The notes below the pieces were generated by a model. That model was not told where the DNA came from. It saw nothing but the letters and a program-made list of their open reading frames with translations, and did no database searches. Position numbers and translations under genes: made by a program. From Mustelus asterias (Eukaryota): a stretch of 64,000 nucleotides of DNA. This document shows, in pieces, positions 2,624 to 63,561 of this stretch. Positions within the stretch are counted from its first letter, which is position 1. Each line of letters begins with the position of its first letter. The stretch covers positions 31,062,001-31,126,000 of the forward strand of contig NC_135808.1 of assembly GCF_964213995.1 (NCBI RefSeq), read 5' to 3'.

Positions 2624-3889
2624 AAGTATTGTTTCGTGTGCGCTATTCAGTCAAAATATTCTGCTCATAAAGTACATGGGGGGAAAGGGAAAAGGATGGG
2701 GTACAGAATATAGTGTTGCAGTTACAGGTAGGGTGAAGAGAAAGATCAGCTCAAAAGTCTGATGATAGGAGGGAAAAAGCTGTTCGTTTATCTGTTTTCA
2801 AACTTTTGTATCTTGTTTTCCCGGCAGAAGAAGGTCGAAGAGAGTATTTCTGATTGATATCATTCTGGTGTCGACAGCTATCCTCAACACGGCCATTTTT
2901 TGTGTATTCTGCAAATTCCCCAGTCGAGGCTCCATGTAAACTTCATATTTAATCTGTGCCTCCGGCTTAGTGACCAACAGTCAGGGTGACACTCTGGTGA
3001 CAGTGAAAGTTAAGCGAACCTCAGACACTTCTGATTGAACTTTCTGTCAGTCGATCTGCTATATGTATGCTTGCTGTCAGCCACCCATGTGTTACCGGAA
3101 ATCCTTCTCTTTGTAAATTGCACTTCTCTCTCATTATGCTTGCTGGAAACCACCCAGATAATGCAAAAATCGCCCCTCTAGATAATGGGGTCTCACTGGG
3201 TGCATTCTGTTCACTGCCACGGATCCAGCGAAATTGCTGCAATTCAGTACAGCTTTCCCTCGAAGCTACTGTGTCACAGCTGCTGTTATTCAAGCCCATG
3301 CTGCTCGTCTCCTCTTATGCCTGGCTACTTATGTCTATGTGACCAATGAATGATTAGACGACAGCTTGTGGGATGAATGTGCATCTCTGCTAAAGATGAT
3401 TATTTTATCAGAATCACAGAACAATGGAAACTTGCATTTGAGGCTAGCCACGGATCACACCCACATTACATTTGGAGAAGATTGAGAAGTGTCTTAACAC
3501 TTAAAGGATGACCAAAACTGTGTTCAAAAAACATTGCACAGGCATTGAAAAGTTTCAGGTTCAATACTACCCTGGGGAAGTAATAATTCTTCAAGATGTG
3601 CTACATAGGTGGGAAGGTGGGAGTGGGTTTAGGGTCGATTCACCCTTTGAGAGAGAAATAAAATCATGCTAATTCTTAATCCCAGTCAATGAGACCACAG
3701 TCGACGAAAACATTTGGGTAGTTTCAAAGTTAGAATTATATGAAATGCAAACAGCCCCATGGAGATAACATTCCCTGCTTAAAATAATGCAGTGTCTTGA
3801 GTTGAACTGAAAATTATTACTGATTAATTTTAACTGGAATGCATGGGTTTTCCAAAGCCCCTAGTTTGTGAAGCTGTTGGAAATACCAA

Positions 3890-5350
3890 GAATATTGTGT
3901 GCAGTTTTGGTCTCCTTTTCTGAGGAAAGATGTTCTTGCTGTCAAGGAAGTGCAGCTTCGTTTTACCAGGCTGATTCTGGGATGGCAGGACTGATGTATG
4001 ATGAGAGATTGACTTGGTTAGGATTGTTTTCTTTGGAGTTCAGATGAATGAGGGGGGAATCTCATAGAGACTTATAAAATTCTAACAGGACTAGACATGG
4101 TAGATGCAGGGAGGATGTTTCCGATGGTGGTTCTGTCCAGATCCAGGGCTCACAGTCTGAAGATCCGGGATTGACCATTTAGGACGGAGATGAGGAGAAA
4201 TTTCCTCACCCAAAGAGTAGTGAGCCTGTGCAATTCATTACCACAGGAAGTAGTTGAATGTATTCAAGAGGCGGGCTAGATATAGCACTTGGGGCAAATG
4301 GAATCAAACGTTATGGGGAGAAAGCAAGATTAGGCTATTGAGTTGGACGATCATCCATGATCGTGATGAATGGCGCAGCAGGGCCAAATGGCCTCTTCCT
4401 TCTCCTATCTTCTATAGAATCCCTACAGGGCAGAAGGAGGCCATTCGGCCCATCGCGTCTGTACAGATCACAATCACACTCAAGTCCTATTCACGTCACC
4501 ATACATATTTACCCTGCTAATCCCCCTGACACTAGGGTCAATTTAGCATGGCCAATACACCTAACCCGCACATCTTTGGACTGTGGGAGGAAACCGGAGC
4601 ACCCGGAGGAAACCCACGCAGACACGAGGAGAATGTGCAAACTCTGCACAGTCAGTGATCCAAGGCTGGAATTGAACCCGGGACCCTGGTGCTATGAGGC
4701 AGCAATGCTAACCACTGTGCACTGTGCTGCCCTTATGTTTCTAGGAAATCGTGCATTTCAAAGTGGTTACCGTGTCTCTCCCACCCAGGTGTGAAGGAGA
4801 GGGAGCCCTTGTGCTGCGCGGGTCCTTTAATATCACCTTCACCACATGTAACCCCTCCTCCCTCACCCCAGTCACTGGAACTGGTGATACACTGGTATTT
4901 AATATGACACAGTTTACAAGAATGTTGCCAGGGCTAGCTATAAGGAGAGACTGGAGAGGTTGGAGTCGTTTCCCTTGGAACAAAGACTTGATAGAGGTGT
5001 ACAAAATTATGAGGGGAAGAAATAGAGTGGCTAGGATAAAATTGTTTGCCTTTGTCAAGAATTCTAGGACCAGGAACATAGATTCAAGATCTGTGGCAGT
5101 AGGTGTCGAGGGGACATGGGGAAGAACGTTTTTACACAGAGGGTGGTGAGTTCTGGAATTTGTTGCCCGAATTGGGAATGGAGGGAGAAACCTTAAGATC
5201 TTCAGGTGAGGATCCAACTAACTTTTTAAGTGCTATAAACTTTGGCCAGGTGCGGGAAGGTGGTGTTAGAAAGGGCACCTGGGTGTATTCGGGCTGGTAT
5301 GGACAAGATGGGACGAATGGCCTCTTCTGTGCTGTAACTTTTCTATGGTT
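3890..5350. mobile_element. Two plus-strand CR1 3' ends flanking a minus-strand HE1-like SINE (4412-4733)
   Basis: FWSP/FFTQRVV-type sequence and V-SINE core. Confidence 0.8.
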
Positions 5351-5397
5351 CTGGGCCATTCGCACCCCCAAATATAAAAACACACGAGCGTCAGCAA

Positions 5398-5482
5398 TAC
5401 ATTTGGAGAAGATTGAGAAGTGTCTTAACACTTCAAGGATGACCAAAACTGTTCAAAAAACTTTGCCCAGGCATTGAAAAGT
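5398..5482 (+). repeat. 85-bp direct copy of 3467-3553
   Basis: Near-identical by direct comparison (3 substitutions, one 2-bp indel). Confidence 0.9.
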
Positions 5483-6007
5483 ATATATATATAAACACAC
5501 GAGTGTCAGCCGGCGCCATTCAAATCTGGCTGTTGGTTAATTGTTAGTCATCGGTTCTGGTGAGCCAATTAGTTGCTGAGTTTTTATTCACATTACAACA
5601 ACGAGTGAGTTTTAATAACACGCTTTTGGCTGCAAAAAGCTTCGAAATGGATCCGCCCACCATCGCACAACAAGGAGGGAGAAAGCATTTAACCCCCTTC
5701 CAGCGCCATGCACCACAGAATGTCTGACACGAAATGTAAATATAGATTGTAAATATAGCATGAAATGGCAAGTGTGGTGCGGAAGCCAGTGTGCCAAAAG
5801 AACCCGAAGTTTAGAGCAAATCACTCAACAGAGGACCTGTACCGTCCTGTAAGGTACGTTTTCACATTTTCTGAAGAATGTTTATGGGATGGAGTTGTAA
5901 AATACTTTGGGACGTCGGCGAAAAGTAAATGCAAGTGTTACGCCTGGAGCAAGGATAAACACATACACACACTGACACAGGGACACACACAGGCACAGGT
6001 ACACACA

Positions 6008-6147
6008 TAATAAAAGCAAATTACTGCGGATGCTGGAATCTGAAACCAAGAGAGAAAATGCTGGAAAATCTCAGCAGGTCTGGCAGCATCTGTAAGGGGA
6101 GAAAAGAGCTGACGTTTCGAATCCAAATGATTCTTTCTCAAAGGCAG
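6008..6147 (-). mobile_element. Penelope-derived mini-element, family B
   Basis: Matches 34198-34330; TSD caggtacacaca (5996, 6148). Confidence 0.75.
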
Positions 6148-6371
6148 CAGGTACACACACACGGAATCTGGGATAAATAACAGAAAATGCTGCAAGTGTA
6201 CAACAGACCAGTCTGACAGAAATCGCTCAGTTACACAGCTCAGTTCAGCACAGACTATTCCGTCCCCCATCCTGAAAACATCAGATGTGATCCACAAGCC
6301 TCTTGCAGTCGATGATCCCGGTAAGCCAGCGGGGTCGACATTCAATGAAGCAGCCGGAACAGGGTACTTAC

Positions 6372-6438
6372 CAACTGTTTGTACCCGATAGAAACACAGC
6401 GCAAGCGACAGAAACACTCCTTGCACTCCGCCTGCCAT
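6372..6438 (-). CDS. First coding exon (signal peptide MAGGVQGVFLSLALCFYRVQTV) of a secreted or membrane protein; candidate MHC/antigen-presentation gene
   Basis: ggaATGG Kozak context, hydrophobic core, 67 nt ending in a phase-1 G|gtaagt donor, CpG-rich surroundings. No convincing exon 2 found in the window. Confidence 0.7.
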
Positions 6439-6530
6439 TCCTCTCAGCGACCGACTGGGTAAGATTGGGACTCCGTGAAAAAAGGCGAGCTGAGCTTCAC
6501 TCACAAGTGGTGAGTGAGAGTCCCTCCCGT

Positions 6531-6573
6531 CCAATCGCAGTCAGAAATTGCGGAGCCGTCACTGGTTAGCAAG
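6531..6573 (-). promoter_or_regulatory. MHC-type X1-X2-Y promoter module
   Basis: Minus strand reads CTTGCTAACCAG-TGACG-(21 nt)-ATTGG, about 95-135 nt upstream of the leader ATG. Order and spacing match HLA class I/II promoters. Confidence 0.6.
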
Positions 6574-6689
6574 TGGTTCTCTCGCTGACTGGCTCACAGT
6601 CCAAAGTCTGCTTGTCGGGCCGGCGATAGGTGTGTAAAATAGTTTTTTCAAGGATCATGAGTAATATTATGATCAACACAATACCTCAG

Positions 6690-7255
6690 GATTCTCCGGG
6701 TTCCTCCCACACTCCAAAGATGTGCATATTAGGTGGATTCGCCATGCTAAATTGTCCCTTAGTGTCCCAAGATGTGTAGGTTACGCGGGGGCTGGGGGGG
6801 GGGGGGGGGCAGGGGGTAGTCATGGCAAATGTGCGGGGATAAGGGGAAGGGAGAGGCCCTGGGAAAGATATTCTGTCAGAGAATCGGTGCAGACTAGATG
6901 GGTCTAATGGCCCCTTCTATACTGTCGGGATTCTATTAATACACAAGAGCAACTGGATTTCAAATCATGGCAATTCTCACCCGCATGGGGAAATTTTAAC
7001 CCAATCCAAAAAATTAACCCAACAATTTCAAAGTTAAACAGAAAAAAAATAAAACCCCAGATCCAGTCCAAAGTCACAGTCCAAAGATGTGTGGGTTAGG
7101 TTGATTGGCCATGCTAAAGTGACCTCAGTGTTCGGAGAATTAGCAGGGTAAATATGTGGCGTTCTGGGAATAGGATCTAGGTGGGACTGTGGTCAGTGCA
7201 GACTCAATGGGCCGAATGACCTCCTTCTGCACTGTAGGGATTATATGATTCTATG
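6690..7255 (+). mobile_element. Two 5'-truncated HE1-like SINEs
   Basis: V core and tail sequence at 6690-6935 and 7075-7255. Confidence 0.8.
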
Positions 7256-9321
7256 ACCACCATAGGCTGCTGTCCCCTTTAAGGGGGAGAGCTGACTGGT
7301 GGTGATTTAACCTGAGGATTAGCACACCCCAGGCGAGGGGCAAGGATGAGTAGGTGGGCCTTCATGAATACTTGCTGATTTAAAAAATAACAGTTCTAAA
7401 GAATACAGTTGTAAATAGTGCACAAGTACTGAATAACCTGGAAGTGCAGCTGCATCGATCATTGACATTTTGAAGAGTGTTTAGCAAAATATGTGGAATC
7501 TTGGGCTTCAACTACAGCAATTGAATGCAAAAGCCAGGAAGTTAGACTGAACCACAGAGAGGCAACAGCTTTCAAACCCACAACCATTGCCAGCAGGAGA
7601 TAGAGAAACAGATATTTAGGCAGATTTTGGCAAGGTGTAAAAGTAACAGGGTTGTAGTGGTGGGAGATTTTTACTTCCCCTTTATTGACTGGGACTCACT
7701 TAGTGCTAGGGACCTGAATGGGGCAGCGTTTATAAGGAGCATCCAGGAGGGCTTCTTGAAAGAGTATGTGGATAGTCCAACTAGGACTATCATACTGGAC
7801 CTGGTATTGGGGAATGAGCCCGGCCAGGTGGTCGATGTTTCAGTAGGGGAGCAGTTCAGGAACAGTGACCACAATTCAGTAAGCTTTAAGGTACTGATGG
7901 ATAAAGATAAGTGTAGTCCTCAAGTGAAGGTGCTAAATTGGGGGAAGGCTAATTGCAACAATATTAGGCAGGAACTGAAGAATGTTGATTGGGGGCAGAT
8001 GTTTGAGGGCAAATCAGCATCTGGCAGGTGGGAGGCTTTCAAGTGTAAGTTGATAGGTATTCAGGACCAGCACATTCCTGTCAGGATGAAGGATAAGTAT
8101 GGCAAGTTTGGGGAACCTTGGATAACGAGAGATATTGTGAGCCTAGTCAAAGAGAAAAAGGAAGCTTTGTCAAAACTAGGAAGCTGAGAACACACAAAGC
8201 ACGTGTGAAATACAAGGAAAGTAGAAAGAAACTTAAGCAAGGAGTAAGGAGGGCTAAAAGGGGTTATGAAAAAGCATTGACCAGCAGGATGAAGGAAAAT
8301 CCCAAGGCTTTTTATACATGTATAAAGAGCAAGAGGGTAGCCAGGGAGAGGGTTGGCCCACTCAAGGACAATGGAGGGAATCTATGCGTGGAGCCAGAGG
8401 AAATGGGAAAGGTATTAAATGAGTACTTTGCGTCAGTATTCACCAAATAGAATGACTTGGTAGATGATGAATCTGGGATAGGGTGTGTAGATAGTTTGAG
8501 TCATGTTGAGATCAAAAAGGAGGAGGTATTGGGGTTCTTGAGAAACATTAAGGTAGACAAGTCCCCAGGGCCTGATGGGATGTACCCCAGAATACTGAGA
8601 GGGGCAAGGGAGGAAATTGCTGGGGCCTTGAGATAAATCTTTGTATCCTCACTGGCTACAGGGGAGGTCCCAGAGGAGAATAGCTAATGTTGTTCCTTTG
8701 TTTAAGAAGGGTAGCAAGAATAATCCAGGTAATTACAGGCTGGTAAGCCTTGCATCAGTGGTAGGGAAATTATTGGAGAGGATTCCTTCAGACAGGATTC
8801 ATTCCCACTTGGAAATAAGTGGACGTATTAGTGAGAGGCAACATGGTTTTGTGAAGGGGAGGTCGTGACTCACTAACTTGATTGAGTTTTTCGAGGAAGT
8901 GATGAAGATGATTGATGAGGGTAGGGCAGTGGATGTTGGCTACATAGACTTCAGTAAGGCCTTTGACAAAGTCCCTCATGGCAGACTGGTGCAGAAGGTG
9001 AAGTTGCATTGGATCAGAGGTGAGCTGGCAAGGTGGATACAAAACTGGCTCAGTCAAAGAAAACAGAGGGTAGCAATAGAAGGGTGCATTTCGGAATGGA
9101 GGGCTGTGACAAGTGGCGTTCCTCAGGGATCAGTGCTGGGACCTTTGCTGTTTGTAATATATATAAATGATTTGGAGGAAAATGTAAGTGGTTTGATTAG
9201 TAAGTTTGCGGACGACACAAAGGTTGGTAGATTTGCAGATAGTGATGAGGACCATCAGAGGATACAGCAGGATATAGACCAGTTGGAGAATTGGGCGGAG
9301 AGGTGGCAGATGGAGTTTAAT

Positions 9322-9672
9322 CATAGAAAGAAATAATAGAAACCCCACAGTACAGAAAGAGGCCATTCGGCCCATCGAGTCTGCACCGACCACAATCCCA
9401 CCCAGACCCTACTCCCATATCCCTACATATTTTACCCACTAATCCCTCTAACCTACGCATCTCAGGACACTGAGGAGCAATTTTAGCACGGCCAATCAAC
9501 CTAACCCACACATCTTTGGACTGTGGGAGGAAACCGGAGCACCCGGAAGAAACCCATGCAGACACGAGGAGAATGTGCAAACTCCACACAGACAGTGACC
9601 CAAGCCGGGAACCGAAACCAGGTCCCTGGAGCTGTGAAGCAGCAGTGCTAACCACTGTGCTACCGTGCCGCC
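9322..9672 (-). mobile_element. HE1-type SINE
   Basis: Near-identical to the 2286 copy; splits the CR1 RT at EFN|PDKC. Confidence 0.92.
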
Positions 9673-10142
9673 CGGACAAATGTGAGCTAATGCATTTTGG
9701 AAGGTCTAATATAAACAGGAAATATACAGTCAATGGCAGAACCCTTAAGAGTATTGATAGGCAGAGGGATCTGGGTGTACAGATACATAGGTCACTGAAA
9801 GTGGCAACGCAGGTAGAGAAGGCAGTCAAGAAGACATATGGTATGCTTGCCTTCATCAGCTGGGGCATTGAGTTTAAAAATTGGCAAGTCATGTTGACGC
9901 TTTGTAGAACCTTAGTTAGGCCGTACTTGGAATATAGTGTTCAATTCTGGTCGCTGCACTACCAGAAGGATGTGGAGGCTTTGGAGAAGGTACAGAAAAG
10001 ATTTACCAGGATGTTGCCTGGTATGGAGGGCATTAGCTATGAGGAGAGGTTGGAGAAACTTGGTTTGTTCTCACTTGAATGACGGAGTTTGTGGGGTGTC
10101 CTGCTAGAAGTCTACAAGATTTCAAGGGCGGCAAGATTACAA

Positions 10143-10473
10143 GGGCAGCACGGTAGCACAATGGTTAGCACTGCTGCTTCACAGCTCCAGGGACCTGGGT
10201 TCGATTCCCAGCTTGGGTCACTGTCTGTGTGGAGTTTGCACATTCTCCTCGTGTCTGCGTGGGTTTCCTCCGGGTGCTCCGGTTTCCTCCCACAGTCCAA
10301 AGATGTGCGGGTTAGGTTGATTGGCCATGCTAAAATTGCCCCTTAGTGTCCTGAGATGCGTGGATTAGCGGGTAAATGTGTAGGGATATGGGGATAGGGC
10401 CTGGGTGGGATTGTGGTCGGTGCAGACTTGATGGGCCAAATGGCCTGTTTCTGCACTGTAGAGATTCTATGAT
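10143..10473 (+). mobile_element. HE1-type SINE
   Basis: A/B boxes, V core and tail. Confidence 0.92.
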
Positions 10474-11119
10474 TTATGAGAGGCATGGAGAGTGGCTAGT
10501 CGAAGCTTTTTCCCAGGGTGGAAGAGTCAATTACTAGGGGCCATAGTTTTAAGGTGTGAGGGGCAAGGTTTAAAGGAGATGTACGAGGCAGGTTTTTTAC
10601 AGAGCGTGGTGAGTGCCTGGAACTCGTTGCCGGGGGAGGTAGTGGAAGCGGATGCGATAGTGTGTATTAAGGGGCATCTGGACAAATATATGAATAGGAT
10701 GGGAATAAAGGGATATGGTCCCCGGAAGGGTAGAGGGTTTTAGTTAAGTCGGGTAGCATGGTCGGTGCAGGCTTGGAGGGCCGAAGGGCCTGTTCCTGTG
10801 CTGTAATTTTCTTTGTTCTTTGTTCACTACCATCTAGATTGGACAAGGGCAGCAGATACCTGGTAACACCACCGCCTGGAAATTTCACGACAAGTCACTC
10901 ACCACACTGACTTGGAAATATATCGGCCGTTCCATCACTTTCGCTGGGTCAGGATCCTAGAACTCCCTCTCGAACAGCACCATGGGCGTACCTATACCAC
11001 AGGGACTGCAGAAGTTCAAAGAAGACAGATCAACACCACCTTCTCAGGGGCAATTAAGAATGAACAATGAACACAGGTTTTGTCAATGATGCCCACATTT
11101 CATAAAATAATTTAAAATG

Positions 11120-12400
11120 ATTGGAGCATCCAGTTTTGGTCACCACACTGGGAAGGATGTGATGGTATTTTGAGAGGGTGAAAAGCAGATTTACTCAGTG
11201 TTCCAGGAATTAAGGACTTTGGCTAATATGTTAGAATGGAGAATATGTTGTTATTCTGCTTGGAGCGGCTTCTGAGGGAAGACTTAATAGAGGTGTACAA
11301 TATTATGACAGGTTTAGATAAGGTCGATAAAGAAAAATCATTCCCATTAACTGACACAGATAGAAAAAGTGTTAAATAATACACTCCAAGATTGGGAGTG
11401 TTCCTCGCTTTGTGGAGCATATTATGTGGTGCAATGCAATTGATGACACCACCACACCAATTTCCAAAAAATAGAATCACAGAATTGATGGCCATTTGGC
11501 CCATCGTGTCTGCACCAACTCTCCAGATAACCACCATGACTTAATGCCATTCTCCTGACTTTTCTCCATATCCCTGCACATTGTTTCTATTCAAATAATC
11601 ATCTAATGCGCTCTTCAATGCTTCGATTGAACCTGCCTCCATCACACTTCCAGACAGCGTATTCTAGACTCGAACCACTCCTGTGAAAATGTTTTTCCTC
11701 ACATCAAATTTGCTTCTTTTACAAATCACTTTCAATTTATGCCCTCTCATTCTTGATCCTTTTATGAGCGGGACAGCTTCTTCCTTTCTACTCTGTTCAG
11801 CCTCCTCATGATTTGGAACGTTTCTATTAAATCTCCTCTTGGCCTTCTTCTCTCCAAGGAGAAAAGTTCCAACCTCGCCAATCTATCATCATAATTGAAG
11901 TTTCTCATTCCTGGAACCATTATTGGGAAACTTCTTCTGCGCGTTCTCCAATGTGTTCACATCTTTCCTATAGTGAGGCACACAGAACTGTACACAATCT
12001 TATAGCTGGAGTCTAACTAATGTCTTGCATAAGTTTAGCTTAACCTTCTTGCTCTTGTAGTCTATGCCCCTGTTAACAAAGCCAAGAATAATACCTGCTT
12101 TATTAATTCCTCTCTCCACCTTCACCTTCAATGATCTATGTACATATACATGCAGGTCCCTTTGTTCCTGCACCCTTTTAAAAATTTCACCCCTTATTTT
12201 ATATTCTCTCTCTCTAAATTCTTGCGACCAAAATTCATTCTGTCAAAACTGTTATGTTCAAACCATTTTGAACTTCATCTGCCAGCCATCTGTCCATCAA
12301 CTTGGTACATCTTTTTGAATTTCAACGCTGTTGTCTTCACGGTTTACAATGCTTGTAACTTTGAAACCTTCTCTTACACACCAAAATCTAGTTAGATTAT
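11120..12400. mobile_element. CR1 fragments (+ 11120-11370; - 11470-12400)
   Basis: Degenerate CR1 3' regions. Confidence 0.75.
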
Positions 12401-12999
12401 TAATATATAGTTGGGGTACTCACCCTTGTCATGTAAATATCAATCTAAAAGGCTATTAAGTAACCATCACATTGCAACAATGCCATCAGAGGCAATAATA
12501 TACCTTCCGAGTGAAGCTTGGGAAGGTTGGGAATTCCGTTTTTAAGGATTTGAAAATGGTAGCTGAGAACAGAGTCTCAGCTTTGAAGTTAAAGCTCTAT
12601 TGAGTACAGGAACTGCTCACTTAAGTGGACAGAGGAAACTATTGGACATTTTCCATGAGGAGGACTCTGCTCTGTCTCAGAGGGATCTTTTCATCAAATA
12701 TATCCCAGTCCGTTCCACAGAGGTGAGCATGAAAATTGCCTGAGGCAGTTAAGGATTGCTGCCTCAGTTGGAGACACAACCTCCAGTGAGGAGGAAAGAA
12801 GAATTAGGTGGTGGTGGAGGAGGAGGGTGAGCAGAAGAAGGGGATGCAGAGAGGATCATGCTGCTGTGGTTCCACAGGAAGAAGACAGATCAGTGCCAGA
12901 CCTCGAGAGTCAGGGGAACCCAGACACCTTCAGTGAAGCACCGGATGAATTGATGCTGCCTCATGGGTAAAGAGGCAAAGATTCGGCTACCTGAAACTA

Positions 13000-13230
13000 A
13001 CCTTATGAGGCTACTAAACCTGTTGTGGCACTGGGACTAAATCCTCCTCACTGTGGTAACACCTGTTGACCTCAGCGACCCCCTCCTCCCACATCTGCCT
13101 GGGCTTCCTCCTCTTCCAAGCAATTGGCATGCGCTGGCCAGGTCTATCCTTTACTGCACACAGGAGGGAACCAATGGCAGCCTCATTGAATCTGGGGGAA
13201 GTTTTGTCCCTCCCATTGCAACGACAGCGC
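13000..13230 (-). mobile_element. PIF/Harbinger Myb/SANT-like protein remnant
   Basis: PRFNEAAIGSLLCAVKDR..MWEEGVAEVN, then after a frameshift RI*SQCHNRFSSL, resembles the Harbinger trihelix domain. Confidence 0.6.
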
Positions 13231-14294
13231 AGATATTTATGCATAGCAATATGTAATAAATGTACAATTCCACAATGTGGAAAGGTAAGAGAACTGCTGC
13301 ATTTCAGAACTTTTGCCAGCTATGAAGATTGATATGGTCGGCAGTGATAACCTTAAATTTAAATGAAAACAGAAAATACTGGAAAACCTCAGCAGGTCTG
13401 ACATTGTCTGTGGAGAGAGAAACAGAATTAATGTTTTGAATTTAATGAATCATCATCAGAGCTGGAGAGGTAGAAATATGATGGGTTTTCTATTGTTGAA
13501 GCGAGGGAGTGGAGCAAAATGGAAGGTCAGTGATAGGTGGGATCTCAGGAGAGACTGATAAAGGTCATAGAAACAAGACAAATGGAGTGAGATTCCTGTC
13601 CAACCCAATCCGGGGAGCACTTGCAATGCGTTTGTACATTGAGAATCAGAGCCATTCAATCCAAGGACTGGTCACCCTCCTGAAACCAGCTCCAATGAAG
13701 ACTTGAGGGAGGGGAATGGATAAGTATCTCGCACTGGAACCTGGAGATGGGATATCATCATAAAGGCAGGCAGCTCAATAGCTAAATATAACCAGAACAA
13801 CTTTCCTGTGAAAATATCCTAAGATCTAAGATCCTGGATGTGTGTTTCTGTGAGAAATGTGGAAATATGAACAAAGGATGGAAATTGGGATCAGACGAGA
13901 GGAAAGTTCCATGAATGAGTCAGGTTCCTTGATGAACCAGGTTTGTGAATAAACAAAGCAAGAAATAAATATGAAATGAGAAAGGAAAGGTTTGGTGACA
14001 TTGTAAACACTGCTTTCCTTTGCTACATCATAATCACAAATTTAACACTGTAACCCTGACACTTTCATAGAATCACAGAATCATAGTCATAGAGGTTTAC
14101 AGCATGGAAACAGGCCTTTCAGCCCAATTTGTCCGTGCTGCCCATTTTTATTTTTAACCACTAAGCTAGTCTCAATTGCACACATTTGGCCCATATCCCT
14201 CTATACCCAACTTACCCATAGAACTGTCGAAACGCTTTTTTAAAGACGCAATTGTACCCATCTCTACTACTACATCTGGCAGCTTGTTCCAGAC

Positions 14295-15640
14295 TGAAGA
14301 AGGGAAAGGGTTAATGTTTTTTGTACTCAATGTATTTTGTACCTAAAAGGTTGAACTTTGTACCTGGAATGTATCACAAACCTAACGTTTCCTTGTGGCG
14401 AGTCATCCCTTTTTTATATTGCTCCTGGTAGTAGCACAAGCCATTTGTTCATGTCTTTCATCTTTTGCTTTAGTAAAAGCCATTTGTTCATGGTTCCCTC
14501 GCTTGTTTATATCATTCTGATAAAACAGACAGTTGAATATAGATGTTAGTCTTTCTTTCCCGGAGGCTTGTCTGTGATTTAAGCAGAGGAAGCAGCGACC
14601 AAATGGTAGAGTGCGAGAATGGCCGTTTGAAGGAGGACTCCCACTGGGACAGTTGCACTCAGTCACTCAGTCACTTCAAAGGAAACGCTGCGGGAAGAGC
14701 AGGGGACCAGAGGTGACACCTTGACTGCAACGACCAGGAGAATTGTTCTTTATGACCCAAGGATACCAGATGGTCTCTAACCATGATCCAGAGACTATCA
14801 GAAGCTGTTAAAGGAACTATAATTTACGATCAAGGACTGTTAACTGGACTTTGCTTTATGGCTTGTATTGGGAACCCTGATGTATAAATATCCACGTTTC
14901 TTGTGTCCAGAGAGAACTTTGGCTTCCGCTTTCAAGGGGTCAAGTTCTCCCATAAGCTTATGAGAATAAAGCATGACTGTATTTTGACTCATACCAGCCT
15001 ATAGAGGTATATTTTCCGACTTCATTTTGGTGCCGAAACCCGGGAAAAACCCCGGATCTGTTTGTGGGACTCTGTTTGCTGGCCCAGGTTGAATGGCCAC
15101 AACCTGTGCACTGGAATAGAGTTCTGAACCTAGTAGGGTGAGTCAAACTACAGTGGGCTGAGCATATGTGGTGAGTGTGTGTGAGAGTGAAAGACATCTG
15201 AGCTGAACACATGCGGACAAGGAGGCATTAGTCTGTTATGGATTCTCAAGTGAGTGTAAAGACTGGAGAAAAGTTGCCTGATATGTGATGTTCAGACGTG
15301 AGTGAGAAAGAAACTGTTTGTGTGAGAGAGAAACTGTCTGAGTGATCACTGGAATAGTGTAAGCTTAATAGTGTAAGCGGTGGTACGGAGGGATTTGATC
15401 ACCCCTGACAGGTAACACCGGACTCTGATAAGAGCGACCTAGGAGTGGGAGAGCGAGAAGGGAGAATCGAAGGCTCCAAGTGGTGAGTATAAAACTGATC
15501 TGTATTATGGTGGGATCACAAGCACAAGGACAGTGGGGACTACCGGAATCCCTGATAAATGAGTGTATGACTGAGAGGAACAAATTCATTAAACAGATGA
15601 GAAAAGGGGGGTGGAACTTATCCTACCCTCTGGGCCAACA
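14295..15640 (+). mobile_element. Truncated LTR retroelement/ERV: 5' LTR (14295-15024), tRNA-Phe PBS, leader and start of a gag-like ORF
   Basis: TGAAG...CTTCA termini; TATA at 14883; AATAAA at 14965; PBS TGGTGCCGAAACCCGGGA at 15028-15045; ATG at 15507 opens 44 codons. CAGAC direct repeats at 14290 and 15641 within a CR1 host. Confidence 0.88.
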
Positions 15641-16049
15641 CAGACACCACACTGTGTGAAACAATTGCCCCTCTGGTCCCTTTTGTCTCTCTCCCCTCTC
15701 ACCTTAAAACTATACCCTCTGGTTTTAGACTCCCCTACCTTTGGGAAAATATATTGACTATTTAGCTGATCTATGCCCTCATAATTTTATAGACCTCTAT
15801 AAGATCACCCTCAGCCTCCAACGCTCCAGAAAAAAATGTCCCAGTCTATCCAGCTTCTCCTCATAACTCAAGTCTCAGTAGCATTCTAGTAAATCTTTTC
15901 TGCACTCTTTCGAGTTTAATAATATCCTTTCTTTAATAGGGTGACCAGAACTGTACACAGTATTCCAAGAGTGGCCTTATCAATGTCTTGTACAATTTCA
16001 ACAAGACGTCCCAACTCCTCTATTCAATGTTCTGACCAATGAAACCAAG

Positions 16050-16198
16050 ATGTGGAGTTGCCGGTGTTGGACTGGGATAGGCACAGTAAGTAGTCTCACA
16101 ACACCAGGTTAAAGTCCAACGGGTTTATTTGGTAGCACGAGCTTTCGGAGCGCTGCTCCGTCACCTGATGAAGGAGCAGCGCTCCGAAAGCTCATGCT
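16050..16198. mobile_element. Penelope-derived fold-back mini-element, family A, with hammerhead core
   Basis: 15-bp TSD accaatgaaaYcaag (16035, 16199); internal inverted repeat. Relatives at 1-38, 39644, 47673 and 56104. Confidence 0.8.
16161..16197 (+). ncRNA. Minimal type I hammerhead ribozyme motif
   Basis: TCAC-CTGATGA-AGGAGCAGCGCTCC-GAAAGCTC-ATG: intact core, stem II GGAGC/GCTCC, palindromic AGCT loop 3. Stem I has one mismatch. Confidence 0.7.
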
Positions 16199-16459
16199 AC
16201 CAATGAAATCAAGCATGCCGAATGCCTTCTTCACCACTCTGTCCACCTGTGACTCCACTTTCAAGGAGCTATGAACCTGTACCCCTCAATATCTTTGGTT
16301 CCATAACTCCCCCCAACACCCTGCCATTAACTGAGTAAGTCCTGCCCTGGTTCGATCTACCAAAATGCATTTATCTAAATTAAACTCCATCTGCCATTCG
16401 TCAGCCCACTGGCCAAATTGATCAAGATCCCACTGCAATCCTCAATCCCTGCAATACAG

Positions 16460-17065
16460 AATAGAGTCATAGAAACTCTATAGTGCAGAAGGAGGCCATT
16501 CGGCCCATCAAGTCCGCACCAACAACAATCCCACCTCGGCCTTATCCCCGTCATCCTATACATTTACCCCACTAATCCCTCTAGCCTATGCATCCCAGGT
16601 TAGTAAGGGGCAATTTAGCATGGCTAATCCACCAAACTTGCACATCCTTGGGCTGTGGGAGGAAACCAGAGCACCCGGTGAAAATCCAAGCAGACACGGG
16701 GAGAATGTGCAAACTCCACACAGACAGTGACCCAAGCCGGGAATCTAATCTATGTCCCTGGAGCTGTGAGGCAGCAGTGCTAACTACTGTGCCACTGAGC
16801 CTGCACCAGCGCTTCGACAGAGCACCATATGAAGGCCCTATCTCCGTAACCCCATATTTATACCCCTATCCTACACATCTTGGGACACACCGGGATAATT
16901 CAAGCCTGGCTAATCCACAACCTGCACATCTTTGGACCGTGGGAGGAAACCAGAGCATGCAGAGGAAAGCTGTGCAGACACAGGGAAAATGTGCAAACTC
17001 CGTAGTCAGCCAGGCTGGAATTGAACCCACACCTCTGGCACGGTGAGGCAGCGGTGCTAACCATC
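16460..17065 (-). mobile_element. Two adjacent HE1-like SINEs
   Basis: Reverse-complement copies at about 16460-16795 and 16800-17065. Confidence 0.85.
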
Positions 17066-17737
17066 CCCAACCAGTTTCCCAACCACAAACCCAATTCTAA
17101 CCATAACCCAAGTAAACAAACTGGCTTCAGCAGTGGGAATGAGATGTCTAGACCAGTTTAGACCAACGTTTAGACCAGCAAAGGCCGATGCGGCCCACAA
17201 ATAGTTTCTCTCTCACAGTTGCTGTTGATCAGCTCAAAAGCCTATCAGCAGCAAAAGAATATGCCTGTGATTGGGGAAGCAGCAGACACCAGTGCCAGTC
17301 AGTTCAGCACCTGAGAATTTGAGAGCCAGGGAACCAATAAACCTAGTCAGCAGCACGGATGGCTAATAAACCGAGGAATAAGGAGCCACGGATGGGGCTA
17401 GAGAGGCAGAGGGCTGGGAGCCAGGCCAAGGGAGTGGAGCTGCAAGGGCATTGGGGCCAAAGAGCAGTGGCTCGGGGATGTGCAAGTGCCAGGGCGTGGG
17501 TTCCTGGTATTCAGAGTGGAGCAATTAGGCAGTAGAGGCAGGGGCAGGGACCCCTGGCATCAAAGTGAGTTAGTTACTGCAGACTGTGAGAGGGACTGAG
17601 TGAGTTGCTGTCCAGAGTTTTGGTTAATTCATTTAAGGGATATGGACTTTGCTGGCTAGGCCAGCATTAATTGCCAATCATTAATTGCCCTCGAGTGGTG
17701 ATGAGCTGCCTTCTTGGACCAATGCAGTCTGTGTACT

Positions 17738-18085
17738 CATAGAATAGAAATCATAGAAACCCTACAGTGCAGAAAGAGGCCATTCGGCCCATCGAGTCTG
17801 CACCGACCACAATCCCACCCAGGCCCTACCCCCACATATCTTACCCACTAATCCCTCTAACCTACGCATCCCAGGACTCTAAGGGGCAATTTTTTAAACC
17901 TGGCCAATCAACCTAACCCGCACATCTTTGGAATGTGGGAGGAAACCGGAGCACCCGGAGGAAACCCACGCAGACACTAGGAGAATGTGCAAACTCCATA
18001 CAGACAGTGACCCAAGCCGGGAATCGAACCCAGGACCCTGGAACTGTGAAGCAGCAGTGCTAACCACTGTGCTACCGTGCCGCCC
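17738..18085 (-). mobile_element. HE1-type SINE nested in a LINE 3' fragment (17635-19455)
   Basis: Near-identical to the 2286 copy. Confidence 0.92.
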
Positions 18086-18194
18086 CTGTTGGGGATGAAG
18101 TTCTTGGACGTTGACCCAGCGACAGTGAAGGAACGGCGATATATTTCCAAAGCAGGAAGGTGATTGCATTGGAGGGGAACCTCCAGGTGATGGT

Positions 18195-18942
18195 TGTAAC
18201 CCCCTGCTGACCACTATATGAGGCTACTATTTAAATATTCAATCAACAGGATCCCGAATTCCTAGCGGTTGATGTTGATTTGGCGAATTCCCTGTTTACC
18301 CATAAATGTCAGTACTGTAAGTCGGAATATCAAAAATAAATTTAATGACACATATCATTAACAGACATAAAACAGTGAGCTCTGATCTATAACCGTTGGT
18401 GCACATATGGGGAAACTCATCCTCTGTAACACATTCGTAGATACTGATCCAGTTGGACTGTATAGTCCCCATCAGTTACTCACGACACCCACACACAGTC
18501 CAGGAGAGACACCCGTGTGGAAGATGATGCCGCAGGAGGCAGAGATGCCGCGAGCTATCCATGCAGCAACGTAGGTCGAGTGCGCTGAATGCTGTCCTCC
18601 TCGGCAGTAATGAAAAGAACAGGCAGGGGAACGCCTGGCTGCCTCTCACTCCAAACCGAATTCTGCCTGCCTGGAAAAAGCTCTCTCTCTTCAGCTCTGC
18701 ACCTTCAGCTCTGCACCTTCAGCTCTCTGCCTCTCCAGCTCTGCCTCTCTCTCTGCACTGCTTCACTTCCTGGCGCCTTTTTTTCCTCCTGCCCCCAGAG
18801 CAATCCCATTGGCCCAGCCCACATCACTCAACCAACAGCATCCTGTTCACAGCACCCACCCGGCAAACAGGACACTGAAGCCCACCAGGGACAAAGAACA
18901 CTGGTAACTGTCTTCCCCACAGATTTTCCTCAGTCCCTTACA
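18195..18942 (-). mobile_element. Solo LTR (Gypsy-like)
   Basis: TGTAA...TTACA termini with a perfect 4-bp TSD TGGT, interrupting a LINE 3' fragment. Internal ttcagctctgcacc tandem copies. Orientation inferred. Confidence 0.8.
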
Positions 18943-19455
18943 TGGTGTTCCCAGGTATCTGCTACCCTTGTCCTTCTAGGTGGTAGCAGTCGTGGGTTTG
19001 GAAGGTGCTGTCTGAGAAGCGTTGGTAAGTTCTTGCACTGCATCTTGTTGATAGTACACACTGCTACCATCGTGCATCGTGGTGGAGGGACTTAATGTTT
19101 GTGGAAGGGTAAAAATCCAGTAGGCTGCTTTGGCCAAGATGGCATTGAGCTTCTTCAGTGTTGTTTGGAGCTGCACTCATCCAGGGAATTGGAGAATTTT
19201 GCATCACACTCCTGAATTGTGCCTTGTTGATGGTGGACAGGATTTTGGGAGTCAAGAGGTGCTTTATTCACCACAGAATACCTGGCCTCTGACCTGCTCT
19301 TGTACCCATCACCATTGATTTGTCTAGTCTACTTCAGTTTCTGGTCAATGGTAATCCCCAGGATGTGGATAATGCGGAGTTCAGTGATGGTAATGTCATT
19401 GAATGTGAATGGGGCGATGGTTAGATTATCTCTTGTTAAAGATGGCCATTGCTTG

Positions 19456-35850: not shown

Positions 35851-35921
35851 AAAGGGAATTGAGTAAAATGTTGGCAGCATTCACCAGTCTACACAGATAC
35901 AGTGCCATTGGTTAAAACACT

Positions 35922-36140
35922 ATCACTTCTCGACCTTTGGGCTAAGATCAAGAGTCAGATCAAGCCCAAGGTGGGATGCCTGATCTTGGCAGCTTATATA
36001 TTGTATGTCTCTCTTGTGGGGACCATGAATTGGAATCAATTGGAATTTAAATTTGTTTTTTGGAGCAAGCAAGGAGATGGATTCAGGCTTGCCCTATCCG
36101 CTCTGCACATTGGCTTTGTAACTTTAAGAATGCAGTCATT
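35922..36140 (+). pseudogene. U2 snRNA-derived sequence (divergent pseudogene or U2-headed retroposon)
   Basis: atcacttctcgacctttgggctaagatcaag matches the U2 5' end. Later segments align to stem II, the Sm-site region (tttttggagca) and 3' stems. GTAGTA is absent. Confidence 0.85.
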
Positions 36141-36209
36141 TTTTTTATTATTGGTTTAAACATGCTTTCAATCTGGGTCATTCTGGCTGAGTAGAATGCA
36201 GTAGCTATA

Positions 36210-36896: not shown

Positions 36897-37429
36897 TCAT
36901 ATTACTAAGTGGTGCAACTTAAGAGGCTCGGAATTTGTATCAGCATCACCCATATCAAGAGCAAAAAATGGAAAGAGCTTCTCGATGAATGTGTTAGTGT
37001 AAGTGGCAAGATGAGACATATCATCAGCATTGTAAAAAGACAATTGCCCTCGCTCATAGTCCAGGTAAACTCCGATAGTCGTGGGCTCCGCGATCAATTT
37101 GAGAATCTCATCAGTCGCATATTCATCTCCACCTGTCAACGACAGGGTCCAGTATCCATTTTCAGGGACAGGATCGATTTCACCCTTTCGATTGGCTGAC
37201 TCCGTTGCCACACCAACAACCCAGTCAGTGATGTCCCCCACCTCTACCTCCCAGTAATGTGTTCCCGTTGTGAACCCCTCTGATCCCAAGATGCAAGGGC
37301 ACTCATCGAAACTTTCCGGATTGCAATGAGTCGATACTTCCTCGTCAGTGGACTCCATGCTGGTCAGGTCATCAGATAGGAGAAGCTGAGGGTGTGCTGT
37401 GTCTGGGTCAAAGGTCAGTGGTGCTGGAA
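36897..37429 (-). CDS. TRIM exon 6: PRY-SPRY (B30.2) domain and stop
   Basis: Motifs LTFDPDTAHP, GTHYWEVEV, IGVYLDYERGQLSFYN, LFPFF. Phase-1 acceptor tttcctccaag, with an in-frame alternative AG 6 nt further on. TGA at 36897-36899. Confidence 0.95.
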
Positions 37430-37634
37430 CTTGGAGGAAATAAAAATACTGAAGTTAAGTACTACACACGAACAAATATAAACAATGGTTATTAATTTTT
37501 AGCAGGTCATTCTCATTTAATGGAAAAATGTGCCTTTCCAATTAAAAGCTAATACATGTTCCCTCAGGAAATTCAAGTTGGGTTTAAAATTAGCAGTATC
37601 CTCGCAGTTATAGGCCCCAACAAATTTCAATTGC

Positions 37635-61805: not shown

Positions 61806-62906
61806 GGAATGAAGGCATTGAAATGTTTGTAATATTCTCAGTACTGTGTTGAAGAACCTCAAAACGCATCTTAATCTCTGGAGAGAATGAGAATATCATT
61901 GCAATTTCCTGTTATAGCAACTTGAAATGTTTTTGTCATCTTTCAGAGAGTTTACGAATAAAGTATATATTTTCAAAAGTAGGTTTGTATTCTTTGTTCA
62001 TCTTTCTGTATTAAATTTGATCTGCCACACATCCGCCCATTCTGCCTGGTGTCTGTATCCTTGAAGTCTACTTCTCCTCACAGCTCACGAGGTGAGCAAG
62101 TTTCACGAGGTGCACAAATTGTGAAATTGCACCCTGCGCACACAATCTCAGAATTGCGCAGAAGGTGTGCGCACCAGCTCTACAAAGGGGCATGATGACT
62201 GAGTGCCATACTCCTGCCTTTTCCCCATAACTCTTACACTCAGGGCCTAGATCATTAACATGAGATCGAGAAATGGTCCAACCAGGGACCCTGCCGCCCA
62301 CCCAATTTTCCTGGGCCCTGCCTGAGGCACCCCACTACATACCCAACTCCACTCTAAAACTTCCTGTCAACGGACCAATTCCGTATGCAGGCTGCCATTG
62401 CCCCGTTTTATTCCATCCAATAAATACAAGCTGCTTTTTTTCCCTTTAATATAAGGTGCAAATGAAATAGACACGCACACAGTAAATGGAGATAACGACA
62501 GATGGGTGGGTACATAGAGGGCAAAGGAAAATACTTAGAGTTGTACATGCGGAAATAATGACAAAATAGCACGTTTTTAAAAGGCCCCAAAATATAGCGT
62601 CAGGTACGTCATTAAGCTGCAGATCAGCCCTGACAAAACTGACTTTAGCGTATTTGATGTGTTAACTGCATCTTGTACAATGTAATAATCCGCAATGATC
62701 TTGTACAATGTCAGTAATAATCCGCAATGATGCTTAAAGTTTAGTAATGGCAGCAAGTTTCTACACTATAAACCCACCCCATCTAAAATCTTATTGCGAC
62801 TGGATGGATAGTCTCCTGAGTAAATCCCATTAGTAATCACCTAATTTCTAAAGAGCCAGAACACCATATATCGTACCCGCGGTCGCCCCGGAACACTCCT
62901 TCTTAC

Positions 62907-63320
62907 CTTGTACTTTCTCACCGCGTCCGCCACGGGCAGGAAGCTGTGTCCTGAGTGTGAGGGTGAATCTCGACAAATGACACAGATCAGAGTCTGATCG
63001 TCCTCACAGAAGAGTTTCAGCTTCTCATCGTGTTCCTCGCAGTGAGAGCCCACCGCCTGTGGCGCCGGGTTCACTTCCAACTGTCTGGCTTTCTCACAGA
63101 GATTGGCCAACACCCTGGCATTTTTAAACGACCTCTGGGGGAAAACTGCCCGGCATTCCGGGCAGGAAAACTTCTTCCTCCGGCTTTCCCAACATTTCTC
63201 TATACAGGATTTACAGAAGTTGTGATCACAGTCCAGCCGCACCGGCTCCACAAACAGAGCCAGGCAGATGGAGCAGGTTAAATCCTCACTCAGAGTTAAG
63301 ACCTGCTTGTTAGCAGCCAT
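62907..63320 (-). CDS. TRIM family E3 ligase (RING-Bbox-CC-B30.2), coding exon 1: RING + B-box2
   Basis: ATG at 63320 in aacATGG context (the ORF-track start at 63341 is GTG). C3HC4 RING CSIC..CDHNFCKSC..CPEC and B-box CEEH..C..C..C..H..H. 414 nt, phase-0 donor AAG|gtaaga. Confidence 0.95.
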
Positions 63321-63343
63321 GTTCTCTGTACTGGAATCCACAT

Positions 63344-63358
63344 TTTCACTTTCATTTC
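63344..63358 (-). promoter_or_regulatory. ISRE/IRF element GAAA-T-GAAA-GT-GAAA upstream of the TRIM ATG
   Basis: Plus strand reads TTTCACTTTCATTTC, 24-38 nt upstream of the ATG. Matches the GAAAN(1-2)GAAA consensus twice. Confidence 0.7.
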
Positions 63359-63561
63359 TTCATTGATTGAAGGTCAAAGAGCAAATTAGCGAACATTTCT
63401 TCTTGCAATTAGGGGATGTGGGCTGGGCCAGGTTGTGGTGTTTCCAGGTATCTGTTGCTTTTGTCTTCGATGGTAGAGGTTGTGGATTTGGGGGGGTGAA
63501 AAACAGATGGGAATGTTGCTTCTGCAGAAAAATCACAAGACTGACCCACAGTGTGTGTGTA

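What the first reader, a model, noticed from the sequence alone, without database searches (positions are those of the whole stretch)
35907..36163. U2 snRNA-derived insertion with the branch-point recognition sequence replaced
Seen: U2 5' end, stem II region, Sm-site region and 3' stems are recognisable, but TGTAGTATC is replaced by about 28 unrelated nt (agtcagatcaagcccaaggtgggatgcc). There is a small internal duplication, a T8 run at the end, and a 12/14 direct repeat on both sides (attggttaaaacac at 35907, attggtttaaacat at 36150). Known: Keno (Tx1) and Utopia elements insert into U2 near this position, and snRNA-headed SINEs (SINEU) exist in crocodilians. Inference: a possible U2-derived retroposon or variant snRNA family in sharks.
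Basis: partly seen in the sequence, partly recalled or inferred. Interest (0 to 1): 0.7.

Follow-up and report, generated by a model that had tools for sequence, protein, structure and literature searches.

The report
Jumping element built from whole U2
This is one decayed copy of an old jumping element, present in thousands of copies, made from almost the whole U2 splicing RNA with its intron-reading hairpin duplicated and predicted to be locked shut; it was likely transcribed from U2 gene promoters and likely copied by a U2-targeting retrotransposon, which would explain how such promoterless elements spread.

Summary
The feature is real and is not a lone pseudogene. It belongs to a dispersed family ('A'): 406 and 1,019 exact hits for two family-specific patterns (controls 0), roughly 6,000 copies, unrelated flanks, A/T tails, target-site duplications above control. 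[quoted passage not shown] The Sm site is altered and the stem-loop IV loop is gone, so it is unlikely to splice. The genome's U2 array holds a Keno-type Tx1 LINE at U2 nt 38/39. A younger sister family (B) sits at that same site four times, twice behind U2 upstream DNA. Nine of 59 promoter-bearing U2 units carry head duplications at that site, resembling A's likely origin. No A copy was found behind a U2 promoter, and expression was not tested. Closest known: crocodilian SINEU-3; my paper searches found none outside crocodilians (Repbase/Dfam not checked).

The parts
35907..35919 (+). left target-site duplication (13 nt)
   Evidence: 12 of 13 to 36150-36162; family-wide TSD excess over swapped-flank control
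35922..35955 (+). U2 head, U2 nt 1-34
   Evidence: 88% over 34 nt to the genome's U2; Rfam alignment
35956..35963 (+). partial second head (U2 nt 23-30); 5' arm of the conserved outer helix
   Evidence: 7 of 8 to U2 23-30 in the family majority line; pairing conserved in A and B
35964..35988 (+). re-copied U2 nt 19-48: BSL in register; this copy has lost 5 nt around the loop
   Evidence: majority line 11 of 11 pairs in the U2 22-48 register against 9 of 11 in U2; 5-nt gap in this copy
35989..36026 (+). remodelled U2 stem IIa region (3' arm of outer helix) and stem IIb homolog
   Evidence: alignment to genomic U2
36027..36063 (+). 18-nt extra stretch and altered Sm site (G before the T run where U2 has A)
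36064..36136 (+). U2 3' domain: stem-loop III homolog and stem-loop IV with its loop deleted; ends at about U2 nt 184
   Evidence: last 15 nt align to U2 170-184 with 8 matches, 6 transitions, 1 transversion; loop motif in 0 of 104 copies
36137..36149 (+). decayed A/T tail (T8)
   Evidence: family tails
36150..36162 (+). right target-site duplication

Best explanation
The element is a decayed copy of an old SINEU-like retroposon family made from a nearly full-length U2 snRNA whose 5' head was duplicated at the Keno insertion site; source copies likely sat inside U2 genes and were likely transcribed from the U2 promoter, and the RNA was likely reverse-transcribed and inserted genome-wide by the Keno-type Tx1 LINE. 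Shown: dispersed family, tails, TSDs, U2 ancestry of the insert, loss of splicing elements, Keno and sister family B at U2 nt 38/39, B behind U2 upstream DNA, present-day head duplications in promoter-bearing U2 units. Inferred: that A itself used the U2 promoter and Keno's enzymes; that its 3' end near U2's mature end reflects snRNA-type 3' processing; that the stabilised BSL helix was selected (to keep the RNA out of the U2 snRNP or to be bound by the LINE proteins). Dispersed copies such as this one lack a promoter and are likely dead on arrival.
For: Family: 3,349 and 4,624 first-look candidates, 40 scored each; 406 and 1,019 exact pattern hits, controls 0; overlap 5 of 31 in the listed range gives about 6,300 copies (by hand; range about 2,700-19,000). 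TSDs: 19 of 104 at score >=8 against 13 of 514 swapped; 5 of 104 against 0 of 514 at >=12. Two subfamilies, 93% and 91% to their own majority lines; the window copy is 91.5% to A2, whose 3' domain is closer to U2 (57 of 75 against 51 of 74). BSL: 11 of 11 pairs, P 0.0007 for 9 random stem changes; U27-A43 in 30 and G30-C40 in 29 of 41 copies that passed the module pattern, the same two changes as the stabilising mutants M2 and M1 in PMC13019295, where M2 and M1/M2 gave little or no reporter splicing (passages). The 17-pair module is kept with different stem sequences in A, B unit 1 and B unit 2. Keno: ORF1 ZCCHC3/zinc knuckle, APE, RT, zf-RVT, 3' end abutting U2 38-191. B at that site in L065 (twice), L220 and L274; young B has TSDs in 17 of 29 against 19 of 812; B lies directly behind a Keno tail in 4 of 30 dispersed Keno ends. 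Of 59 promoter-bearing U2-head units, 48 are intact U2, 9 have head duplications restarting at U2 18/19, 2 carry B. U1 pieces lie just upstream of 5 of 109 A copies and U2 pieces of 2, as described for SINEU (PMC4494074).
Against: 0 of 59 promoter-bearing units carry A, and none of 109 A copies is followed by U2 39+; only 1 of 109 lies behind a Keno-type tail (0 of 545 background windows). A shares no 3' tail with Keno. Most A copies (85 of 104) show no TSD at score >=8. The two promoter-backed B copies are decayed: one has a damaged proximal element (missed at 2 mismatches), the other is followed by broken U2 and a truncated Keno, so neither is a proven source. The array Keno copy examined is interrupted by a tRNA-type SINE. 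The window copy's own hairpin folds no better than shuffles (z -0.91), and two old B module copies gave z -0.16 and -1.71. About a third of A copies (35 of 104) have a second Sm-like motif slightly upstream. Dispersed Keno and B copies show little target preference, so another Tx1 or L1 family could have moved A.
Confidence: 0.65

Rival explanations
1. Processed pseudogenes of one or a few aberrant U2 genes, copied passively by L1 or another Tx1; no re-seeding cycle and no selection on the RNA.
For: Aberrant promoter-bearing U2 units exist now (9 of 59); A ends near U2's mature 3' end; no A at the Keno site.
Against: Thousands of copies, successive subfamilies, derived families B and C, and compensatory stem changes across them point to repeated source elements under selection.
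Confidence: 0.17
2. A non-autonomous Keno: the insert is the remnant of a Keno 5' end left in a U2 gene after nearly total internal deletion.
For: 12 of 15 between the insert start and the Keno 5' UTR start; same site.
Against: The insert continues in register into U2 39-48 as a BSL; no Keno 3' UTR or tail at the junction; Keno's own 5' end may itself be a decayed U2 head repeat.
Confidence: 0.08
3. A functional variant snRNA gene (altered branch specificity or regulatory RNA) with many retrocopies.
For: Conserved secondary structure; intact U2 1-30; DNA held by at least six coded organisms.
Against: No near-identical or promoter-backed A copy (best non-self match 95%); branch loop mutated, stem-loop IV loop absent in 104 of 104, Sm site altered; subfamily turnover.
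Confidence: 0.05
4. A Pol III SINE with an internal promoter acquired in the insert.
For: One B-box-like 9-mer at nt 37 of the majority line.
Against: No A-box match; T4 at nt 15 and T5 at nt 141 would end Pol III transcripts.
Confidence: 0.05

Closest known systems
SINEU-3 (and SINEU-1, -2) of crocodilians; Kojima 2015, PMC4494074 (parts 1-4 of 5 read: all main text; figures and supplements not seen)
   Same: Short U2-derived retroposon with poly(A) tail, no Pol III promoter, internal oligo-T, TSDs, tandem copies, U1/U2 pieces added at the 5' end, likely Tx1-mobilised.
   Different: SINEU-3 has U2 1-32, an internal deletion of about 50 bp and a non-U2 3' end, and targets a Mariner element. 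A keeps U2 to about nt 184 and gained a duplicated head with a closed BSL. Its sister family enters U2 genes at Keno's site, which offers a promoter; the paper leaves SINEU transcription open and found no SINEU outside crocodilians.
Keno (Tx1 clade, APE) and Utopia (RLE) U2-targeting LINEs; PMC4640811 (passages), PMC4494074
   Same: Same site in U2 (the paper says the two share 3' flanking U2 sequence); the Keno-type LINE here also starts with U2 head pieces.
   Different: A encodes nothing and lacks Keno's 3' UTR. The LINE here is mostly dispersed: 602 exact 3'-end hits; of 30 examined, 1 is followed by U2 38+.
U2 snRNA retropseudogenes (as summarised in PMC4494074)
   Same: U2-derived, tailed, TSD-flanked, promoterless.
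   Different: Those copy wild-type U2 and are often 3'-truncated; A copies share derived structural changes and form subfamilies.

Membership tests
SINEU | 5' head from U1 or U2 snRNA | tested here: met
   U2 1-34 head; 91 of 109 copies start within nt 1-15 (three of the four sets were picked in ways that favour full length, 13 of 28 in the 3'-picked set)
SINEU | short (<500 bp), multi-copy, shared derived structure | tested here: met
   about 220 nt
SINEU | 3' poly(A) tail and TSDs | tested here: met
   mixed A/T tails; TSD excess 19 of 104 against 13 of 514
SINEU | no Pol III promoter; internal oligo-T | tested here: met
SINEU | mobilised by Tx1, shown by shared target | tested here: inconclusive
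   met for sister family B; for A 1 of 109 behind a Keno-type tail, none at the U2 site
SINEU | common descent with crocodilian SINEU-1/2/3 | not testable with these tools
   no SINEU sequences on hand; the structure described in the paper differs, so independent origin is inferred
functional U2 snRNA | Rfam RF00004 gathering score | tested here: not met
   35 against 46 bits; true genes 178-190 bits
functional U2 snRNA | branch-recognition loop, Sm site, stem-loop IV loop | tested here: not met
   loop GCAAT for GTAGT; canonical Sm site altered; loop IV motif in 0 of 104
functional U2 snRNA | upstream snRNA promoter and 3' box | tested here: not met
   0 of 59 promoter-bearing units are A; no flank match to U2 upstream or downstream DNA in 109 copies
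non-autonomous Keno derivative | carries Keno 5' and 3' ends | tested here: not met
   only head plus 12 of 15 nt at the 5' side; no 3' match
Keno (for the LINE in the U2 array) | Tx1-type ORFs with APE, inserted at the conserved U2 site | tested here: met
   no RT tree was built

The most novel reading that the evidence does not exclude
U2 arrays in this lineage are a nursery for selfish snRNAs: Keno-site repair keeps producing promoter-bearing U2 genes with duplicated heads (9 of 59 units now), one such gene evolved a locked BSL that exits the splicing pathway and serves as a recognition helix for the LINE, and that module then founded several retroposon families (A, B, U1-headed C) that renew their promoter by re-entering U2 genes.
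Probability: 0.35. Interest if true: 0.8.

Novelty: new variant of a known kind. Interest (0 to 1): 0.6.

Why it matters
SINEU was described only from crocodilians, and how these promoterless elements are transcribed was left open (PMC4494074). Here the target-specific LINE, promoter-backed insertions and apparent starting material (head-duplicated U2 genes) lie in one array, so the promoter-borrowing model can be tested directly. The family also carries, naturally, the two BSL-stabilising changes that were engineered in human U2, which links spliceosome RNA dynamics to retroposon birth.

Tried and rejected
Rfam at gathering threshold: no hit in the window. Search for an A source gene: none among promoter-bearing units or in about 185 kb fetched around the array (20 stretches). 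Shared 5' or 3' flank among A copies (a target element such as Mariner-N4 for SINEU-3): flank-flank matches were mostly common tRNA-type SINEs at varying distances or tandem A; no specific target seen. Ribozyme: considered by eye only (HDV-like, hammerhead, twister motifs recalled); Rfam gave no such hit. Pol III promoter: rejected. U4 module reported in earlier notes for U1-headed relatives: Rfam on 2 of 20 family-C loci found U1 only at E<=0.1. Sequence look-up in earlier findings: nothing. Literature: eight searches listed no snRNA-headed SINE in cartilaginous fish; subscription journals, Repbase and Dfam are not covered, and the supplements of PMC4494074 were not opened.

Full report
Observation. 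The window shows a U2-like element at 35922-36136, a T-rich tail to 36149 and a 13-nt direct repeat (12 of 13) on both sides. Rfam U2 aligns over the full model at 35 bits (E 1.8e-5), below the 46-bit cut-off.

It is a family. A DNA search of the own genome (3.68 Gb) gave 3,349 first-look candidates; the 39 best non-self matches are 81-86% identical over nearly the whole length. All 30 loci fetched share the insert and have unrelated flanks. Exact patterns for the 5' junction and the 3' end hit 406 and 1,019 times, reversed controls 0. Comparing the listed places by hand (C1 and C2 to 125 Mb), 5 of 31 junction hits also carry the 3' pattern, which gives about 6,300 copies (rough; about 2,700-19,000). 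With a copy close to the majority line as query, the best other copy is 95% identical, so the family is no longer active. Of 120 loci from four searches, 109 unique copies remained after removing duplicates and one excluded locus; 104 reach the 3' end. TSD scores >=8 occur in 19 of 104 against 13 of 514 swapped pairs. Two subfamilies are seen; the window copy is nearer A2 (91.5%), whose 3' domain is closer to U2. Public DNA runs of at least six coded organisms hold 65-74% of the sampled words.

Anatomy. Against this genome's U2, A is U2 1-34, then U2 23-30 again, then U2 19 to about 184. The second copy of 19-38 has 12 matches, 6 transitions and 2 transversions. It pairs with the following sequence in exactly the register of U2's branchpoint-interacting stem-loop: 11 of 11 pairs against 9 of 11 in U2, with the loop changed from GTAGT to GCAAT; nine random changes would give this with P 0.0007. 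The two closed mismatches equal A30G and U43A, the stabilising mutants M1 and M2 of PMC13019295; there M2 and M1/M2 gave little or no reporter splicing and low U2 levels, while M1 alone did little (12 of 45 passages seen). Some copies, mostly lower-identity ones, keep U2's C28 and A29 (5 copies), as expected for an older state. The Sm site is altered in most copies, though 35 of 104 have an Sm-like motif a little upstream; the stem-loop IV loop motif is in 0 of 104; there is no A-box and there are T4 and T5 runs. The window copy itself has lost 5 nt at the hairpin loop and folds no better than shuffles.

The U2 array. True U2 genes form arrays on C24 with 1,833-bp and 8,035-bp units. The long unit holds a Tx1-type LINE (ZCCHC3 RNA-binding domains, zinc knuckle, APE; RT and zf-RVT from a neighbouring truncated copy) whose tail abuts U2 nt 38/39 and whose 5' end is made of U2 head pieces: a Keno by definition (PMC4494074, PMC4640811 passages). 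Its 3' end occurs 602 times genome-wide; all 30 examined match Keno and 1 is followed by U2 38+, so it is only loosely site-specific here.

Sister families. Family B (about 330 nt, U2 1-40 head) has young copies at 97-99% (1,735 candidates) and older ones (94% to own majority). Young B shows TSDs in 17 of 29 against 19 of 812. B sits at the Keno site of U2 four times, twice directly behind U2 upstream DNA, and directly behind a Keno tail in 4 of 30 cases. B carries A's hairpin module twice, with different inner-stem sequences that keep pairing (only copies that passed the anchoring pattern were counted: 41 A, 102 B modules, and that pattern favours an intact outer helix). Family C has a U1-like head followed by A's 5' domain and ends near the Sm site (189 candidates; 14 of 19 non-query loci directly, 3 after an interruption).

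Starting material. Combining, there are 59 units with U2 upstream DNA and a U2 start: 48 intact U2, 9 with the head repeated from nt 18/19 in place of nt 38-47 (intact upstream DNA and 3' flank), 2 with B, none with A. The repeats restart where A's second head restarts. This suggests, but does not show, how A arose.

Mechanism. Shown steps: U2 ancestry, duplication, loss of splicing elements, LINE-type insertion signature, Keno and B at one site, B behind U2 upstream DNA. Inferred steps: Pol II transcription from the U2 promoter starting at U2 +1, which would make the element's own head seamless; 3' end near U2's mature end; reverse transcription by Keno; rare return to a U2 gene to renew the source; purging of old A sources by array turnover. 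Weak points: no promoter-backed A, only 1 of 109 A copies beside a Keno-type tail, no shared tail, decayed state of the promoter-backed B copies, no expression data.

Known and new. The element works like SINEU-3 and meets the descriptive SINEU features tested; Tx1 mobilisation is inconclusive for A and descent from crocodilian SINEU could not be tested. Kojima 2015 found no SINEU outside crocodilians and left transcription open; later reviews repeat this (PMC5786205, PMC5381603; passages). Eight searches listed nothing on such elements in cartilaginous fish; Repbase and Dfam were not available. Earlier AI notes of this scan, looked up after my reading was formed, describe families A, B and C on other DNA with the same promoter-borrowing idea; they are not independent evidence. 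The excerpts shown did not mention the BSL register or the head-duplicated array genes. Verdict: new variant of a known kind, interest 0.6.

Noticed in passing
G000:C24:43.02-43.055 Mb (L177-L179, L184, L186, L217, L218): Nine U2 gene units with intact upstream DNA and 3' flank in which nt 38-47 are replaced by one or two repeats of the head from nt 18/19; they would give variant U2 RNAs without the BSL 3' arm.
   Followed up: partly
L061 1429-7122; G000:C24:44.81-44.94 Mb: Sixteen 8,035-bp-spaced units; the one read holds an intact U2 plus a Keno copy interrupted by a tRNA-type SINE, apparently amplified with the array.
   Followed up: partly
L127-L156, L226-L255: Family B: young, with TSDs, frequent tandem copies separated by a TSD-like spacer, and variable loops that suggest many source copies.
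   Followed up: yes
L324-L343: Family C: U1-like head, spacer, then A's 5' domain ending near the Sm site; some copies have the U1-like head repeated in tandem many times.
   Followed up: partly
L309 1531-1678: A dispersed Keno end followed by U2 38-185 at 86%: either a 3' transduction of the U2 flank or insertion into a U2 pseudogene.
   Followed up: no
L064 4530-4921: A B copy with a 12-nt TSD enclosing about 66 nt of extra 5' sequence of unknown origin.
   Followed up: no
window 36900-37454 (-) and 62844-63359 (-): PRY/SPRY exon and RING/B-box exon of TRIM-type gene(s); the element lies about 760 nt past the PRY/SPRY frame, on the opposite strand.
   Followed up: no
tails of families A, B and C: Tails are often A-run/T-run mixtures ending in TTTAAA rather than pure poly(A), even in 98%-identical copies; cause not examined.
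   Followed up: no
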